Shown here in pieces: positions 36,529-42,648 of a stretch of 64,000 nt of DNA (its first letter is position 1; each line of letters begins with the position of its first letter). A program made the position numbers and the translations under genes. The notes below the pieces were generated by a model. The model had not been told where the DNA came from, did no database searches, and saw only the letters and a list, made by a program, of their open reading frames with translations. The DNA is taken from the IMG/VR virus record IMGVR_UViG_3300021399_000100; one strand, given 5' to 3'. Source of the DNA: a virus. Lineage: Duplodnaviria > Caudoviricetes.

Positions 36529-36621
36529 GTTTTGTATAGGGGAATATTTTCAGAAATCGGATGATTATATAATTGAACGTAATAAGATAGTTCATGATAA
36601 TCATCATGGTTCTGTTACGAC

Positions 36622-37161
36622 GCCTTTTTAGCTCAGCTGGTAGAGCACGTGATTTGTTAAACAGATTCCGTACAATGTCATTGCTTATGGAAAAGAAACA
36701 AAAAGGTAATTTAGTTGAGTTGCAGTGCATCACTGCATTTTATGAATTAGGTTATCAAGTCAGCATTCCATACGGTGAAAATTCCAGGTATGATTTTGTA
36801 GCGGACATAGACAACAGACTTATAAGAGTTCAAGTCAAAGCATCTCATGAAGTTGATGAAAACTCTTTTCGATTCAGTTGTCAATCTGTTAAATCGAAAA
36901 GATCTGGGATTTCCAGACGTAAGTATACGAAAGATGAAATTGACTTTTTTTCAACTTTCTATAATGGTAAATGTTACTTGGTGCCAGTCGAAGAATGTTC
37001 AATATATAAAACACTTCGGACATCGGAGAGTAAAAATAACCAAATGCAAAACATAAATTTTGCAGATAGTTACGAGCTAGAAAAACAGATTGATAAAATT
37101 AAAAACCCGGAACATTGATTAACAAATCTCGGGGTCGTTGGTTCGAGTCCAACAAGAGGCT
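36622..37161 (+). tRNA. tRNA-Thr(UGU) interrupted by a 467-nt intron (36658-37124)
   Basis: 5' exon 36622-36657 (acceptor, D arm, CGTGA-TT-TGT) and 3' exon 37125-37161 (AA-TCTCG, T arm, AAGAGGC-T) join into a cloverleaf. Confidence 0.85.
36687..37118 (+). CDS. Intron-encoded PD-(D/E)XK homing endonuclease (I-Ssp6803I-like)
   Basis: KG...E......LG..VSIPYG.N.RYD.V.D......RVQVK...Y...EIDFF...YLVPV; alternative start at 36675. Confidence 0.85.
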   Translation: MEKKQKGNLVELQCITAFYELGYQVSIPYGENSRYDFVADIDNRLIRVQVKASHEVDENSFRFSCQSVKSKRSGISRRKYTKDEIDFFSTFYNGKCYLVPVEECSIYKTLRTSESKNNQMQNINFADSYELEKQIDKIKNPEH

Positions 37162-39150: not shown

Positions 39151-39379
39151 CAATGATGTGATTTACTGAATTATTTATACAATGTTGTTGGATGCATTGA
39201 AAAATATTCATAATTTCACATCATAATAAATAAGGCAATCCTCACAAGAGCTAGAATGTTGAGGTTTAATATGGACAAGTTCATCAATGACGTTTATGTA
39301 TGAATGAAGGCATGTTAGGTCGCACATTACGTAGGAGGCAGATGTAGGCCGAACGTATGATAACGGCATTGCCTTTTAA

Positions 39380-39453
39380 GGACCAATAGCTCAGCAGGTT
39401 AGAGCAACTGACTCATAATCAGTAGGTCGTAGGTTCAAGCCCTTCTTGGTCCA
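39380..39453 (+). tRNA. tRNA with CAU anticodon (elongator Met or Ile2)
   Basis: ACTGA-CT-CAT-AA-TCAGT. Confidence 0.85.
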
Positions 39454-39492
39454 CTTTATTATTAATGTTTAATTTTTCACATTTTATTAATT

Positions 39493-40308
39493 ATGATGAA
39501 AATGAATACGCTGCTTGGCGTTACAGACCACGCACAAGCTGTTGCAAACAAAGAGGTGTCTGAATATACATCGCTCTTCAAAAACAAGGGTGGCCAATTC
39601 ATTGGTGAGTTGAAAACGTACGAGCCTCACGAAGGTTACCCCGACAAGCCTGCAGAACACGTTAATCGCACTGTGGCTTCAACTGTGTCTGAGCAGTTCG
39701 ACTATATGTTGAACGATAAAGACCCGCACTGTGGCGCACTCCCTAAGTATTTGAAACTTCTGTTTCAGATTGAGGCCACCAATTCAATCGGTGCCAAACG
39801 CGTTCCATTGATTGTAGATGGTGTAAATTTAGGTAGTTTGACTGCGGTAGAGTTGATGCGTTTGAAGAACGTCCTCACATCAACGAACCTAGACGAAATG
39901 CTCAAGAATATCCCAGTTCGCAGTGACTCCAAGAGATGGACCCGAGCAGGCGGTGATTATTCTGACAGAGAGGTATATGAATCGGATGTCATCCGCTCAG
40001 TGGATAGAACCACTATCAAGACCCAGGAAATCTTGAAGGATCCAAATATTGATCCATCTAACATTCCAGCGAATTACCGCTCAACCGTAGTTGAAAGGGC
40101 GCAGATTGTCGAAATGGCTGACCAGACCCGTCAGGAGTTCACCGGTGAGTGGTCACAGACTCAGAAGGCCTATCTATTGAGCCGAAAGTCATTGCTGCTT
40201 AACGCAGTAATCGCAGCTCTTAAAGAGGTTAACGATATCGAAGCATCTCCAGCAAATTTGGACGTAGACACAATGCTGAAATATCTGTTCTTTGGCAACA
40301 AGGAATAA
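39493..40308 (+). CDS. Uncharacterised protein embedded in the tRNA cluster (recalled as DUF7873-like; unverified)
   Basis: F.G..KTY.P..., I.ATN...., L....L..L, IPVR...W, EF.G.W, AL...N pattern. Confidence 0.75.
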   Translation: MMKMNTLLGVTDHAQAVANKEVSEYTSLFKNKGGQFIGELKTYEPHEGYPDKPAEHVNRTVASTVSEQFDYMLNDKDPHCGALPKYLKLLFQIEATNSIGAKRVPLIVDGVNLGSLTAVELMRLKNVLTSTNLDEMLKNIPVRSDSKRWTRAGGDYSDREVYESDVIRSVDRTTIKTQEILKDPNIDPSNIPANYRSTVVERAQIVEMADQTRQEFTGEWSQTQKAYLLSRKSLLLNAVIAALKEVNDIEASPANLDVDTMLKYLFFGNKE

Positions 40309-40315
40309 TAAATAA

Positions 40316-40648
40316 GGGATAAGGTTATTGGGTTAGCCTTATCTCACAAATTGACTAAAGCTTTACTTTTACTCTTTACATTTAAGCTTAACAGTCCTAG
40401 AGTGTTAGCATTGAGTCAAGAGCATTACAGTATAGCTTTATTGCAAAGCCATAGCATGTTCGTGTAATTCTTCATGAATTGTAAACACTTAGGCGCGGGT
40501 TCGAATCCCGTCCTGCCCGCAATTTTTTGATATTATATATGGGCAGGTGGTGAAGGGGTTAACACGGGTGTTCCACAGCTTTAGCATAACTTGCTATAAA
40601 GGTATTTGCACAATTCTACGGATATGCAGCAGGGATAGCTGGTATCCT
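40316..40648 (+). ncRNA. Candidate ncRNA containing a circularly permuted tRNA-like domain (3' half 40484-40519, 5' half 40541-40572) and AGC(A/T)T repeats
   Basis: Perfect acceptor stem GGGCAGG/CCTGCCC in inverted order, canonical T arm and D arm; flanking hairpins. Confidence 0.75.
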
Positions 40649-40649
40649 A

Positions 40650-40722
40650 GGGGGAGTAGCTCAAAAGGGAGAGCACACGAATCTTAATCATGGAGTTGCC
40701 GGTTCGAGTCCGGTCTCCCCTG
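40650..40722 (+). tRNA. tRNA-Lys(CUU)
   Basis: Cloverleaf; loop ATCTTAA; one anticodon-stem mismatch. Confidence 0.75.
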
Positions 40723-40727
40723 CAAAC

Positions 40728-41070: not shown

Positions 41071-41217
41071 AGCGAAGTAGCTCAATAGGTAGAGCACAGT
41101 AATTCATATACGGGAAGATTGCCGTTCGAACATCGCGCGCGAAGTAGTTCAACGCCATTCAGCGAGAGCACCGTATCCATATAACTGAAGATGACAGTTC
41201 GAATCTGTTCTTCGCGC
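41071..41217 (+). tRNA. Nested/tandem tRNA-like structure (outer tRNA with a tRNA-derived insert)
   Basis: Two GCGAAGTAG 5' ends and two TTCGAA loops, with cross-paired anticodon stems. Confidence 0.65.
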
Positions 41218-42122: not shown

Positions 42123-42193
42123 GTCAGGTTGGCCGAGTGGTTAGGTAATGGTCTGCAAAACCATTTACGCAGGTTCGATTCCTGTACCTGACT
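42123..42193 (+). tRNA. tRNA-Cys(GCA)
   Basis: ATGGT-CT-GCA-AA-ACCAT; U73. Confidence 0.9.
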
Positions 42194-42216
42194 CTTCATT
42201 TAAAATAATATATGTC

Positions 42217-42648
42217 ATGATAGATATAGATAAACTTATTCTTTCTGCAACAAAAGAAAGAGACATAGCTAGGCGAGAGAGCTATAAGATGGTAAAGTCA
42301 AAGTTCCAGGAATGGAAGACTTCTAAGGAGAATGCTGGTAAGAAGGAGATGACTGAGGCTGATCAAATTAAGATCCTCAAGAAGCTTAAAGCCGAATACG
42401 AAGCAGATGCTAGTATGTATCGTACAAAAATGTCAGGCCAAGACATTGCGAAGCAATACGAAGAAACTGCAGTTATTATTGGCAAGCTTATCCCTGCCGA
42501 AGCTAGTGAAGCCGATATAGAAGCGTATATTAGCGAGATAGTTGGCGGTTCAAATATGCAGTTGAAAGATGTGATATGTGCTACTAAAGCGAAGTTCCCT
42601 TCGACTGATGGTAAGATCATAGCCACATTGGTAAAGAAACATTTCTGA
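42217..42648 (+). CDS. GatB/YqeY domain protein
   Basis: A.KE.D..R....K.VK....., I..LIP..ASE.DI, DGK.IA.LVK. Confidence 0.8.
   Translation: MIDIDKLILSATKERDIARRESYKMVKSKFQEWKTSKENAGKKEMTEADQIKILKKLKAEYEADASMYRTKMSGQDIAKQYEETAVIIGKLIPAEASEADIEAYISEIVGGSNMQLKDVICATKAKFPSTDGKIIATLVKKHF

What the first reader, a model, noticed from the sequence alone, without database searches (positions are those of the whole stretch)
39493..40648. Candidate new protein-RNA system: uncharacterised gene followed by a circularly permuted tRNA inside an AGC(A/T)T-repeat RNA
Seen: the 3' half of a tRNA comes first: AACACT (40484-89), variable loop TAGGC, T arm GCGGG-TTCGAAT-CCCGT, acceptor 3' strand CCTGCCC-G (40512-19). 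A ~21-nt AT-rich linker follows, then the 5' half: GGGCAGG (40541-47), D arm GTG..GG..CAC and GGTGTT (40567-72). The acceptor stem (7/7) and anticodon stem (GGTGTT/AACACT) pair only in permuted order, so the anticodon end opens into the flanking RNA. The flanks carry 8 copies of AGC(A/T)T (40359, 40385, 40407, 40421, 40434, 40453, 40577, 40583) and are bracketed by hairpins at 40316-40345 and ~40620-40647. GAATTGT (40476-82) can pair with ACAATTC (40610-16) across the element. The RNA starts a few nt after the stop of a 271-aa unknown protein, which is itself preceded by a normal tRNA. Established: permuted tRNA genes are known from some algae and archaea, and permuted two-piece tmRNAs from some bacteria. 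This element lacks G3:U70 and has a D stem, so it is not a tmRNA. Inference: RNase P and 3'-end processing would remove the linker and give a two-piece RNA, or an mRNA whose 3' end is a tRNA acceptor. The AGCWT repeats could be binding sites for oligomers of the upstream protein, forming an RNP such as a tRNA decoy, a sensor or antitoxin-type RNA, or a translation regulator.
Basis: partly seen in the sequence, partly recalled or inferred. Interest (0 to 1): 0.92.

Follow-up and report, generated by a model that had tools for sequence, protein, structure and literature searches.

The report
Phage tRNA-mimic RNA beside DUF7873 gene
A Lak-like megaphage carries, inside its tRNA gene island, a conserved 303-base folded RNA built around a back-to-front, anticodon-less tRNA look-alike. 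It almost always travels with one protein gene of unknown function (DUF7873), so the two probably form an undescribed RNA-protein unit that resembles bacterial Y RNAs but lacks their Ro60 partner.

Summary
Window 40484-40572 holds a complete tRNA body in permuted order: T arm, a 7-bp acceptor stem joined by a 21-nt linker, a D arm, and an anticodon-like stem that opens outward. It is one domain of a 303-nt RNA (about 40347-40649).

I found this RNA in more than 12 lineages: Lak-A/B/C, 100-190-kb gut and rumen phages, and contigs assigned to bacteria. Nearly every pair of the acceptor, T, D and three stalk helices shows compensatory changes. The AGCWT enrichment is real: 8 copies against 1.6 expected.

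The topology is that of YrlA-type Y RNAs, which gave the best but sub-threshold Rfam hit. It is not a YrlA member: there is no Ro60 gene and no Ro-binding motif. It is not a tmRNA either: there is no G3:U70, and these phages have their own canonical tmRNA and SmpB.

The DUF7873 gene lies at most 1.4 kb upstream, on the same strand, in all 10 lineages picked by the protein (13 loci) except Lak-A/B/C. Binding, RNase P processing and function remain untested. No paper or Rfam family that I could search describes this RNA. The same gene-RNA pair has been noted repeatedly on other DNA by this scan.

Verdict: a real, new variant of the tRNA-mimic Y-like RNA kind.

The parts
39493..40308 (+). DUF7873 gene (271 aa), the conserved upstream neighbour of the RNA. 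Predicted to form a homodimer.
   Evidence: Pfam PF25283, E 2.6e-24. 417 homologues, none named. AF2 model pLDDT 88.6 with no informative fold match. Homodimer ipSAE 0.84 against a best control of 0.00. Adjacent to the RNA in all lineages except Lak-A/B/C.
40311..40336 (+). Hairpin GATAAGG/CCTTATC between the stop codon and the RNA. It occurs only in the window's own clade.
   Evidence: It covaries in L062 (GATATGGC/GCCATATC) and is absent from the G002-type phages. No T-run follows it.
40347..40649 (+). The whole structured RNA (303 nt). The 5' end is provisional. The 3' end is set by the 5' end of the next tRNA.
   Evidence: Conserved block from AAATTGACTAAAGC to the tRNA in all lineages. 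Present in contigs of four metatranscriptome studies; in one run the RNA is covered while the DUF7873 gene has zero depth.
40351..40419 (+). 5' domain closed by helix P0 (TTGACT 40351-56 / AGTCAA 40414-19). It contains an AAGCTT/AAGCTT hairpin and a CUA-loop hairpin (40392-40404).
   Evidence: The sixth P0 pair is U-A, A-U, U-G or C-G in different lineages, and P0 becomes UCGACA/UGUCGA and CAGAC/GUCUG in far relatives. The inner structure is unresolved.
40407..40423 (+). Near-invariant 17-mer AGCATTGAGTCAAGAGC. I used it as the family signature.
   Evidence: One copy per genome in Lak-A1, A2, B5, C1 and G002. 33 viral contigs hold it. Metagenome scan.
40442..40456 (+). 5' strands of stalk helices P2c (TGCAAA 40442-47) and P2b (ATAGCA 40451-56).
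   Evidence: Per-lineage folds. Covariation: P2b 78/78 and P2c 67/72 cells paired, with double changes at every pair. Also present in the window's own MFE fold.
40466..40480 (+). Local hairpin Hx (AATTC-TTCAT-GAATT) on the 5' strand of the junction.
   Evidence: A hairpin occupies this position in every lineage.
40484..40519 (+). 3' half of the tRNA-like domain: anticodon-like stem 3' strand (40485-89), variable loop (40490-94), T arm (40495-40511), acceptor 3' strand (40512-18) and N73 (40519).
   Evidence: The T loop is TTCGAAT and C48 is conserved.
40520..40540 (+). AT-rich linker that closes the acceptor stem. It is either a dispensable loop or an excised spacer.
   Evidence: 17-130 nt long and not conserved, with a 67-130-nt hairpin insert in the G002-type phages. 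The last base is U in 29 of 32 sequences. It is spanned uncut by an RNA-library contig, 40387-40682.
40541..40572 (+). 5' half of the tRNA-like domain: acceptor 5' strand (40541-47), U8 G9, D arm (40550-65, with A14, G15, G18, G19, A21) and anticodon-like stem 5' strand (40567-71).
   Evidence: The D stem covaries: GUG/CAC, GCA/UGC, CUG/CAG.
40577..40610 (+). 3' strand of the stalk: conserved AGCWTTAGC motif (40577-87), P2b 3' strand TGCTAT (40592-97), a 7-nt internal loop, and P2c 3' strand TTTGCA (40605-10).
40616..40649 (+). 3' terminal hairpin that abuts the next tRNA.
   Evidence: Present in all lineages with different sequences.
40650..40723 (+). tRNA-Lys(CUU) directly downstream. Its RNase P site would define the 3' end of the RNA.
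   Evidence: A tRNA, usually Lys-type, starts at this position in every lineage whose sequence reaches it.

Best explanation
The locus encodes a trans-acting, stable, structured RNA of about 303 nt. It belongs to an undescribed family that is linked to the DUF7873 gene.

Shown:
- The RNA has a conserved 5' domain closed by helix P0.
- It has a long three-part stalk (P2c, P2b, P2a) formed by its 5' and 3' parts.
- On top of the stalk sits a full tRNA elbow and acceptor arm written in permuted order: T arm, acceptor stem closed by a variable linker, D arm. There is no anticodon loop.
- This is the topology of YrlA-type Y RNAs.

Inferred mechanism:
- The RNA is made within the phage's tRNA transcription units. 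Host RNase P frees its 3' end by cutting at the next tRNA.
- The tRNA-like domain folds into an L-shape and is handled by tRNA enzymes.
- RNase P probably also cuts before G40541. With 3' trimming and CCA addition at G40519, this would give a nicked two-piece RNA held together by the acceptor and stalk helices, as shown for Mycobacterium smegmatis YrlA.
- The invariant 5' domain and stalk serve as the platform for a protein partner. The best candidate is a dimer of DUF7873.
- Together they would form a Ro60-independent particle that presents a tRNA mimic, possibly for tRNA or RNA surveillance, repair or counter-defence during infection.
For: Structure:
- Every helix of the tRNA-like domain and stalk is kept through compensatory changes in 12 lineages. 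Cells paired: acceptor 84/84, T 60/60, D 36/36, P2a 60/60, P2b 78/78, P2c 67/72.
- RNAalifold independently gave 17 of 30 pairs with both-sides changes.
- tRNA tertiary-contact bases are kept: U8, A14, G15:C48, G18, G19, A21 and the T loop TTCGAAT.

Likeness to YrlA:
- The best Rfam hit is YrlA, full length 1-114, with the correct assignment of T, acceptor and D.

Processing:
- The acceptor stem is 7 bp, the feature that makes M. smegmatis YrlA an RNase P and CCA-addition substrate (PMC4201824).
- U is at -1 in 29 of 32 sequences.
- The linker varies from 17 to 130 nt.

Linkage to DUF7873:
- In lineages chosen by the RNA signature, every non-Lak locus has DUF7873 ending 65-118 nt (318 nt in L064) before the 17-mer.
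- In lineages chosen by the protein (L006, L061-L064, L203-L210), all 13 loci have the RNA at most 1.4 kb downstream on the same strand, down to 39% identity in a Cyclobacteriaceae chromosome.
- No other neighbouring protein gene of the window is conserved across these loci.

Trans action:
- In Lak-B the RNA follows a divergently oriented gene, so it must have its own promoter.
- In one RNA run the RNA is covered while the gene has zero depth.

Partner:
- A DUF7873 homodimer is predicted with ipSAE 0.84 against a best control of 0.00. In calibration, 20 of 30 true homo-pairs and 1 of 23 single chains reached that mark. The runs agree in at least 98% of contacts and the partner pLDDT is at least 90.
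Against: - There are no binding, processing or end-mapping data.
- DUF7873 is acidic (pI 5.6-6.2) and its model matches no RNA-binding fold.
- In Lak-A/B/C the gene and the RNA are about 160 kb apart, so adjacency is not required.
- These phages are related to each other, so part of the synteny may be inherited gene order.
- A contig from an RNA library spans the linker uncut (X17, 40387-40682). So an unprocessed form exists, or DNA contaminates that library.
- The discriminator base differs between clades (G or U), and the linker does not encode CCA.
- The strands of P2a-c were picked per lineage by eye and by folding, which favours pairing.
Confidence: 0.45

Rival explanations
1. The RNA works without DUF7873, as a free tRNA mimic. 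It would be a decoy, sponge or competitor for a host factor that recognises the tRNA elbow or acceptor. Candidates include a tRNA-targeting toxin or defence nuclease, a nucleotidyltransferase, RNase P, the CCA enzyme or a modification enzyme. The gene would be only a co-inherited or co-expressed neighbour.
For: - The RNA sits in a tRNA island, always in front of a tRNA that is usually Lys-type.
- Lak-A/B/C keep both the gene and the RNA but have them unlinked.
- DUF7873 is acidic and has no RNA-binding fold match.
- The tRNA-like domain keeps all elbow contacts.
Against: - A plain decoy does not need a near-invariant roughly 100-nt 5' domain and a conserved stalk.
- Without an anticodon loop it cannot distract anticodon nucleases.
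- The gene-RNA adjacency holds down to 39% protein identity, and across insertions of other genes between the two, while other neighbours change.
Confidence: 0.27
2. The RNA is a cis-acting 3' element of the DUF7873 mRNA, comparable to MALAT1-mascRNA. RNase P cleavage at the tRNA-like domain would make the mRNA 3' end, and the structured part would stabilise or regulate the message.
For: - Only 22-45 nt separate the stop codon from the RNA in most lineages.
- No promoter or terminator signal lies between them in the window.
- One RNA-library contig covers the gene plus the RNA in one piece (X4, 39350-40670).
Against: - In Lak-A/B/C the RNA lies about 160 kb from the gene, behind a divergent gene.
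- In L063, L204 and L210 another gene sits between them.
- In run X20 the RNA is covered while the gene has zero depth.
Confidence: 0.1
3. It is a Y RNA for a host Ro60/Rsr protein. The phage would supply a YrlA-like RNA that binds or hijacks the Rsr of its Bacteroidota host.
For: - The topology is identical to YrlA, which is the best Rfam hit.
- The Bacteroides thetaiotaomicron control genome has a TROVE protein.
- Phage YrlA RNAs are known (PMC4201824).
Against: - The score is 20.2 bits against a gathering score of 69.
- No GNCGAAN0-1G Ro-module motif occurs in any lineage.
- No TROVE gene occurs in Lak-A1, B5, C1 or the complete 178-kb phage.
- The conserved partner gene is DUF7873, not rsr.
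Confidence: 0.07
4. It is a novel two-piece (permuted) tmRNA-like rescue RNA. The Ala/Leu-rich frame after the 17-mer (GCN UUA ... stop) would act as the tag.
For: - There are weak local Rfam hits to tmRNA and tmRNA_permuted (11.6 and 13.7 bits).
- A long stalk links the tRNA-like domain to the rest.
- Short frames such as ALALALL-stop occur in the G002-type phages, with one in-frame 6-nt deletion.
- Lak phages encode SmpB.
Against: - Position 3:70 is G-C or C-G and never G-U.
- A proper D stem is present.
- The 'stop codons' are part of covarying helix P2c, and the frame stays open in L061 and L064.
- Lak-A1, B5, C1 and G002 already have canonical one-piece tmRNAs above the Rfam threshold. 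G002's has G3:U70 and a tag ending MAA-stop-stop.
Confidence: 0.03
5. It is a true circularly permuted tRNA gene, as in Cyanidioschyzon or Thermofilum. The flanks would be removed and the ends joined to make a working tRNA. Alternatively it is a dead remnant of two tandem tRNA genes.
For: - The order of the halves and the 20-nt spacer resemble a 3' half plus spacer plus 5' half of tandem tRNAs.
- The cluster holds other aberrant tRNAs.
Against: - There are no conserved anticodon-loop bases at the open end.
- There is no omega-G or group I core, and no Rfam intron hit.
- The flanks are the most conserved part and form their own covarying helices.
- Conservation with covariation across more than 12 lineages rules out a pseudogene.
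Confidence: 0.02

Closest known systems
YrlA-type bacterial and phage Y RNAs, partners of Ro60/Rsr (Rfam RF02553; Chen et al. 2014, PMC4201824; Wang et al. 2018, bioRxiv 10.1101/312249)
   Same: - The module order is the same: closing stem, variable region, T arm, acceptor-like stem-loop, D arm, closing stem.
- tRNA tertiary-contact bases are kept.
- The M. smegmatis member, which also has a 7-bp acceptor stem, is cut by RNase P and receives CCA.
- Members occur in phages.
   Different: - There is no rsr/TROVE gene in these phages.
- There is no GNCGAAN0-1G Ro-binding motif.
- The score is 20 bits against a threshold of 69.
- The RNA is three times longer, with a near-invariant 5' domain, a three-part stalk and a 3' hairpin.
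- The linker is 17-130 nt instead of a short loop.
- The conserved neighbour is DUF7873.
Two-piece (circularly permuted) tmRNA of alphaproteobacteria, some betaproteobacteria and cyanobacteria (Rfam RF04321)
   Same: - The 3' acceptor/T-arm part is encoded upstream of the 5' acceptor part.
- A spacer lies between them that is excised in tmRNA.
- The tRNA-like domain sits on a long helix.
   Different: - There is no G3:U70 and no recognisable tag frame or pseudoknots.
- A D stem is present.
- The large conserved domain lies on the acceptor-piece side.
- The same phages carry ordinary one-piece tmRNAs and SmpB.
Circularly permuted tRNA genes of Cyanidioschyzon merolae, other algae and Thermofilum pendens
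   Same: The 3' half lies before the 5' half, joined by a short linker that RNase P and RNase Z would remove.
   Different: - Those genes give functional tRNAs through a circular intermediate made by the splicing endonuclease and ligase at a bulge-helix-bulge motif.
- Here there is no anticodon loop to restore, and the flanks are conserved functional structure.
Large ornate phage-associated RNAs found next to tRNA genes (GOLLD, ROOL). This comparison rests on my own knowledge and was not tested beyond the Rfam scan.
   Same: These are also long structured RNAs of gut, rumen and phage origin that lie in or beside tRNA clusters and have no known function.
   Different: There is no Rfam match to either family. 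This RNA is smaller and contains an explicit tRNA body.

Membership tests
YrlA (Rfam RF02553) | Scores at or above the Rfam gathering threshold (69 bits) | tested here: not met
   20.2 bits, E 0.088 on a 451-nt search. 12.5-13 bits in Lak-C1 and Lak-A1. No hit when the linker is long.
YrlA (Rfam RF02553) | T arm, acceptor-like stem-loop and D arm in that order, enclosed by a stem made of the RNA's 5' and 3' parts | tested here: met
   cmscan alignment. Covariation of all four helices.
YrlA (Rfam RF02553) | Encoded next to, and bound by, a Ro60/Rsr (TROVE) protein | tested here: not met
   PF05731 search of Lak-B5, C1, A1 and the complete 178-kb phage found no match, while the control genomes did match. 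None of the ten largest window ORFs is TROVE. Binding itself cannot be tested with these tools.
YrlA (Rfam RF02553) | Ro-binding module with the conserved GNCGAAN0-1G motif (Chen et al. 2014) | tested here: not met
   A regex search over 12 lineages found no occurrence.
tmRNA, one-piece or permuted (RF00023, RF04321) | G3:U70 alanine identity pair in the acceptor stem | tested here: not met
   Pair 3 is C-G in 8 lineages and G-C in 4, never G-U.
tmRNA, one-piece or permuted (RF00023, RF04321) | Conserved tag reading frame with a resume codon and stop | tested here: not met
   The candidate frame is open beyond the stalk in L061 and L064. The stops coincide with covarying helix P2c.
tmRNA, one-piece or permuted (RF00023, RF04321) | Scores at or above the Rfam gathering threshold (47 bits) | tested here: not met
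   11.6 and 13.7 bits. The true tmRNAs of these phages score 48-76 bits elsewhere in their genomes.
Circularly permuted tRNA genes | Halves rejoin to give an intact anticodon stem-loop with a usable anticodon | tested here: not met
   There are no conserved U33 or anticodon-like bases at the open end. Instead 24-70 nt of conserved junction and stalk follow.
Circularly permuted tRNA genes | 3' half, then linker, then 5' half, with a complementary 7-bp acceptor stem | tested here: met
DUF7873-linked tRNA-mimic RNA (unnamed; noted earlier by this scan) | A permuted tRNA-like RNA within about 1.5 kb downstream of a DUF7873 gene on the same strand | tested here: met
   True for the window, L005, L061-L064, L203-L210, the G002 group, L053 and L174. 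Lak-A/B/C is the exception.

The most novel reading that the evidence does not exclude
DUF7873 dimers and this RNA form a Ro60-independent ribonucleoprotein. Its RNA is matured like a tRNA: RNase P nicks it, and the acceptor end receives CCA and may even be charged or tagged. The particle would act on tRNAs or the translation apparatus during infection, for example in tRNA repair or surveillance, or to counter host systems that attack tRNA. It would be a second, independent invention of the Y-RNA principle, spread through megaphages, smaller phages and bacteria.
Probability: 0.3. Interest if true: 0.8.

Novelty: new variant of a known kind. Interest (0 to 1): 0.66.

Why it matters
tRNA mimicry by non-coding RNAs is known from tmRNA and from Ro60-bound YrlA RNAs, and the function of the tRNA-like module of Y RNAs is still open.

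This RNA uses the same module with a different conserved domain and a different conserved neighbour gene, in phages that lack Ro60. It therefore offers an independent system in which to ask what a displayed, anticodon-less tRNA body is for.

It also gives a first functional lead for DUF7873, a family of several hundred mostly viral proteins. And it adds a conserved non-coding gene to the tRNA islands of Lak-type megaphages, which have so far been annotated for tRNAs only.

Tried and rejected
- **Permuted group I intron.** I considered that the flanks are halves of a permuted group I intron that would circularise the tRNA. Rejected: no omega-G before the 3' half, no P7-like core, no Rfam intron hit.
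- **tmRNA.** Rejected after finding canonical tmRNA and SmpB in the same phages.
- **'YrlA' hits in whole Lak genomes.** Two of the top rows were tandem-tRNA artefacts (T arm of one tRNA plus D arm of the next); the true elements scored lower.
- **D-arm pattern search (TGGTGAAGRGGTTAACAC).** It mostly retrieved ordinary tRNAs (His, Glu, Gln) with the same D arm.
- **Origin of the tRNA body.** No tRNA of the window is a clear source.
- **Inner structure of the 5' domain.** RNAalifold and single folds disagree. The proposed GCUU/AAGC pairing is not compensated in Lak, and only P0 and the CUA-loop hairpin look consistent.
- **Fold of DUF7873.** Foldseek against PDB and BFVD, VIA-align wide, ESM Atlas by shape and ESM Atlas by features gave nothing beyond its own family. 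The best Z was 6.0, on helical channels.
- **PHROGs.** No hit.
- **Promoter and terminator scan.** Counts were no higher than in shuffled sequence.
- **Reverse complement of the 17-mer.** No target site elsewhere in the window.
- **RNA-library contigs.** They cannot give ends, strand or level. The shared start at 40366 in two studies coincides with the boundary between a conserved and a variable stretch, so I do not read it as an RNA 5' end.
- **MAFFT alignment A3.** It misaligns the stalk between clades, so the P2a-c counts come from per-lineage strand assignment, not from the tool's alignment.
- **Not done.** I did not build a covariance model (the RNA exceeds the practical size limit). I did not run the count of structure pairs, because that would have required typing a 453-character structure string.
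Full report
**What the window is.** The 271-aa ORF (39493-40308) is a DUF7873 protein (Pfam PF25283, E 2.6e-24). Its only relatives among deposited phage genomes are the 15 Prevotella Lak megaphage records, at 52% identity. The window also holds a T4-type terminase and a ligase, and an island of about 19 tRNA genes at 37.2-42.2 kb. It is therefore part of a Lak-like phage. By the runs that hold it, the phage comes from ruminant gut samples. No whole genome is held for it.

**Checking the observation.**
- The stretch 40484-40572 reads: anticodon-like stem 3' strand, 5-nt variable loop, T arm with loop TTCGAAT, 7-nt acceptor 3' strand plus one base, 21-nt AT-rich linker, acceptor 5' strand, U8 G9, D arm with A14, G15, G18, G19 and A21, then anticodon-like stem 5' strand.
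- ARAGORN and the Rfam gathering search call nothing there.
- AGC(A/T)T occurs 8 times in the 303 nt against 1.6 expected. None of 2000 shuffles reached 8, and only 2 of 1274 sliding windows of the 64 kb do.

**What it resembles.** A permissive Rfam search gave YrlA (Y RNA-like, RF02553) as the best hit. According to Chen et al. 2014 (PMC4201824):
- YrlA RNAs carry exactly this permuted tRNA-like module.
- They occur in bacteria and phages next to Ro60/Rsr.
- The M. smegmatis member, the one with a 7-bp acceptor stem, is cut by RNase P and receives CCA in vivo.

**Relatives.**
- The Lak-A/B/C DUF7873 genes are followed by a terminator and a convergent gene, with no element.
- I found the element elsewhere in Lak-B5, again in front of a tRNA-Lys.
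- The alignment revealed a near-invariant 17-mer, AGCATTGAGTCAAGAGC, about 60 nt upstream of the tRNA-like domain. It occurs once in each of Lak-A1, A2, B5, C1 and a complete 178-kb phage, G002.
- The 17-mer also occurs in 33 IMG/VR contigs and in a few metagenome contigs.
- Together with loci reached through the protein, this gives more than 12 distinct lineages.
- The RNA runs from AAATTGACTAAAGC to the base before the next tRNA. It is 303-318 nt long, or up to 423 nt where the linker carries a 67-130-nt hairpin insert.

**Structure.** RNAalifold on 24 sequences predicts the T stem, the acceptor stem across the linker, the D stem and a 5' helix P0 (TTGACN/NGTCAA). No pair is broken, and 14 of the 15 tRNA-domain pairs have both-sides changes.

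I folded each lineage with the tRNA-like domain replaced by a tetraloop. Twelve of the 13 folds gave the same stalk: P2a (the anticodon-like stem), a junction with a local hairpin on the 5' strand and a conserved AGCWUUAGC stretch on the 3' strand, then P2b, a 3-nt/7-nt internal loop, and P2c. The window's truncated fold differed, but its full-length fold has P2b and P2c.

Cells paired across 12 lineages, with double changes at almost every position:

| Helix | Cells paired |
|---|---|
| Acceptor | 84/84 |
| T stem | 60/60 |
| D stem | 36/36 |
| P2a | 60/60 |
| P2b | 78/78 |
| P2c | 67/72 |

In the window, P2b is 40451-56/40592-97 and P2c is 40442-47/40605-10. P0 covaries further in distant relatives (UCGACA/UGUCGA, CAGAC/GUCUG, TTGACC/GGTCAA). 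The inside of the 5' domain is not resolved. Some AGCWT copies are helix strands, and others lie in the invariant 17-mer or in the junction.

**Is it a tmRNA?** No.
- Pair 3:70 is never G-U.
- A D stem is present.
- The short Ala/Leu frames after the 17-mer end in 'stops' that are part of covarying P2c, and the frame is open in L061 and L064.
- Lak-A1, B5 and C1 encode SmpB.
- Like G002, they also carry a canonical one-piece tmRNA above the Rfam threshold. G002's has G3:U70 and a tag ending MAA-stop-stop.

**Is it a YrlA?** Not as a member.
- It scores below threshold.
- There is no TROVE gene in three Lak genomes or in G002.
- There is no GNCGAAN0-1G motif.
- It does, however, share the architecture.

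**The gene-RNA link.**
- Among loci found through the RNA signature, every non-Lak locus has DUF7873 ending 65-118 nt before the 17-mer. In L064, which has a small ORF in between, the gap is 318 nt.
- Among loci found through the protein, all have the RNA downstream on the same strand. These are L006 and L061-L064 (57-79% identity), L203-L206 (39-50%, including a 6.5-Mb Cyclobacteriaceae chromosome) and L207-L210 (46-55%).
- In three of these loci (L063, L204, L210) one extra gene lies between the two.
- Other neighbours of the window's gene are not conserved across these loci.
- Only Lak-A/B/C have separated the pair. There the RNA follows a divergent gene and must have its own promoter.

**DUF7873 itself.**
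- It gave a confident model (pLDDT 88.6) but no informative fold match.
- It is acidic.
- It is predicted to homodimerise: ipSAE 0.84 against a best control of 0.00. In calibration, 20 of 30 true pairs and 1 of 23 single chains reached that mark. The runs agree in at least 98% of contacts and pLDDT is at least 90.
- In other phages, RNA-repair genes (Tpt1/KptA, RlaP) lie beside DUF7873.

**Expression.** The stretch is present in contigs of metatranscriptome runs from four studies.
- In X20 the RNA region is covered while the gene has zero depth, which fits a stable RNA.
- In X17 a contig (40387-40682) crosses the linker uncut.
- Contigs cannot give ends or strand, and DNA carry-over cannot be excluded.

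**Processing.** RNase P cleavage before G40541 is favoured by three features:
- the 7-bp acceptor stem plus 5-bp T stem;
- U at -1 in 29 of 32 sequences;
- the free variation of the linker.

It is not shown, and uncut molecules seem to exist.

**Prior knowledge.**
- No paper in the searchable library mentions DUF7873.
- The Lak papers do not mention this RNA, tmRNA or SmpB.
- Rfam 15 has no family for it.
- This scan's earlier notes report the same DUF7873/tRNA-mimic pair many times on other DNA, often with two tRNA-like heads. I treated these as leads only and tested the linkage here independently. The window's RNA is a one-headed form with a conserved 5' domain.

**Verdict.** This is a real, conserved, apparently undescribed structured RNA with YrlA-like tRNA mimicry, linked to DUF7873 and independent of Ro60. 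Mechanism and function are inferred, not shown.

Noticed in passing
window 40650-40723 versus L005:4159-4232: In a 99%-identical relative (IMGVR_UViG_3300032007_000203), the tRNA right after the RNA has anticodon CTA (a TAG suppressor) where the window has CTT (Lys). The following base also differs. This looks like a recent switch between Lys and suppressor identity in a phage group known for TAG recoding.
   Followed up: no
Lak-B5 MK250024.1 112449-112880 and 409798-410207; Lak-A1 MK250016.1 507053-507484 and 223026-223421; L192:1501-2050 (-): Lak megaphages encode SmpB (184-186 bits) and a one-piece tmRNA above the Rfam threshold. ARAGORN does not detect this tmRNA, and the Lak papers I read do not mention it. 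The 178-kb phage G002 has a 550-nt tmRNA with G3:U70 and a tag ending MAA-stop-stop.
   Followed up: partly
L192:2544-2691 (-): A Hatchet ribozyme (91.5 bits, threshold 51) lies about 500 nt from the tmRNA gene of the 178-kb phage.
   Followed up: no
L008 (-) about 1700-1560 versus L010 (-) 1626-1555: In Lak-A1, a tRNA carries an insert of about 120 nt in its anticodon loop. The otherwise identical Lak-C1 gene lacks it, and the insert itself contains tRNA-like arms.
   Followed up: no
window 41071-41217: Rfam calls one 147-nt 'tRNA' here. It is a second case in this island of tRNA halves in unusual order.
   Followed up: no
window 42148-42648 (+): An ORF with a YqeY/GatB-like domain (PF09424, E 1e-8) lies inside the tRNA island. 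By my own knowledge this domain family binds tRNA. The ORF is not conserved next to the RNA in other lineages.
   Followed up: partly
window 36594-37118 (+): A PD-(D/E)XK endonuclease ORF (PF11645, E 4e-28) sits at the head of the tRNA island.
   Followed up: no
L063:402-908 and L208:355-1533: RNA-repair genes lie just upstream of DUF7873 in two other phages: an RNA 2'-phosphotransferase (Tpt1/KptA, PF01885) and an RlaP nucleotidyltransferase (PF10127).
   Followed up: no
L006:3994-4123 and equivalents: The 67-130-nt insert in the linker of the G002-type RNAs is itself a conserved long hairpin (AAAGGTGAGA...TCTCACCTTT). It may be an added domain rather than junk.
   Followed up: no
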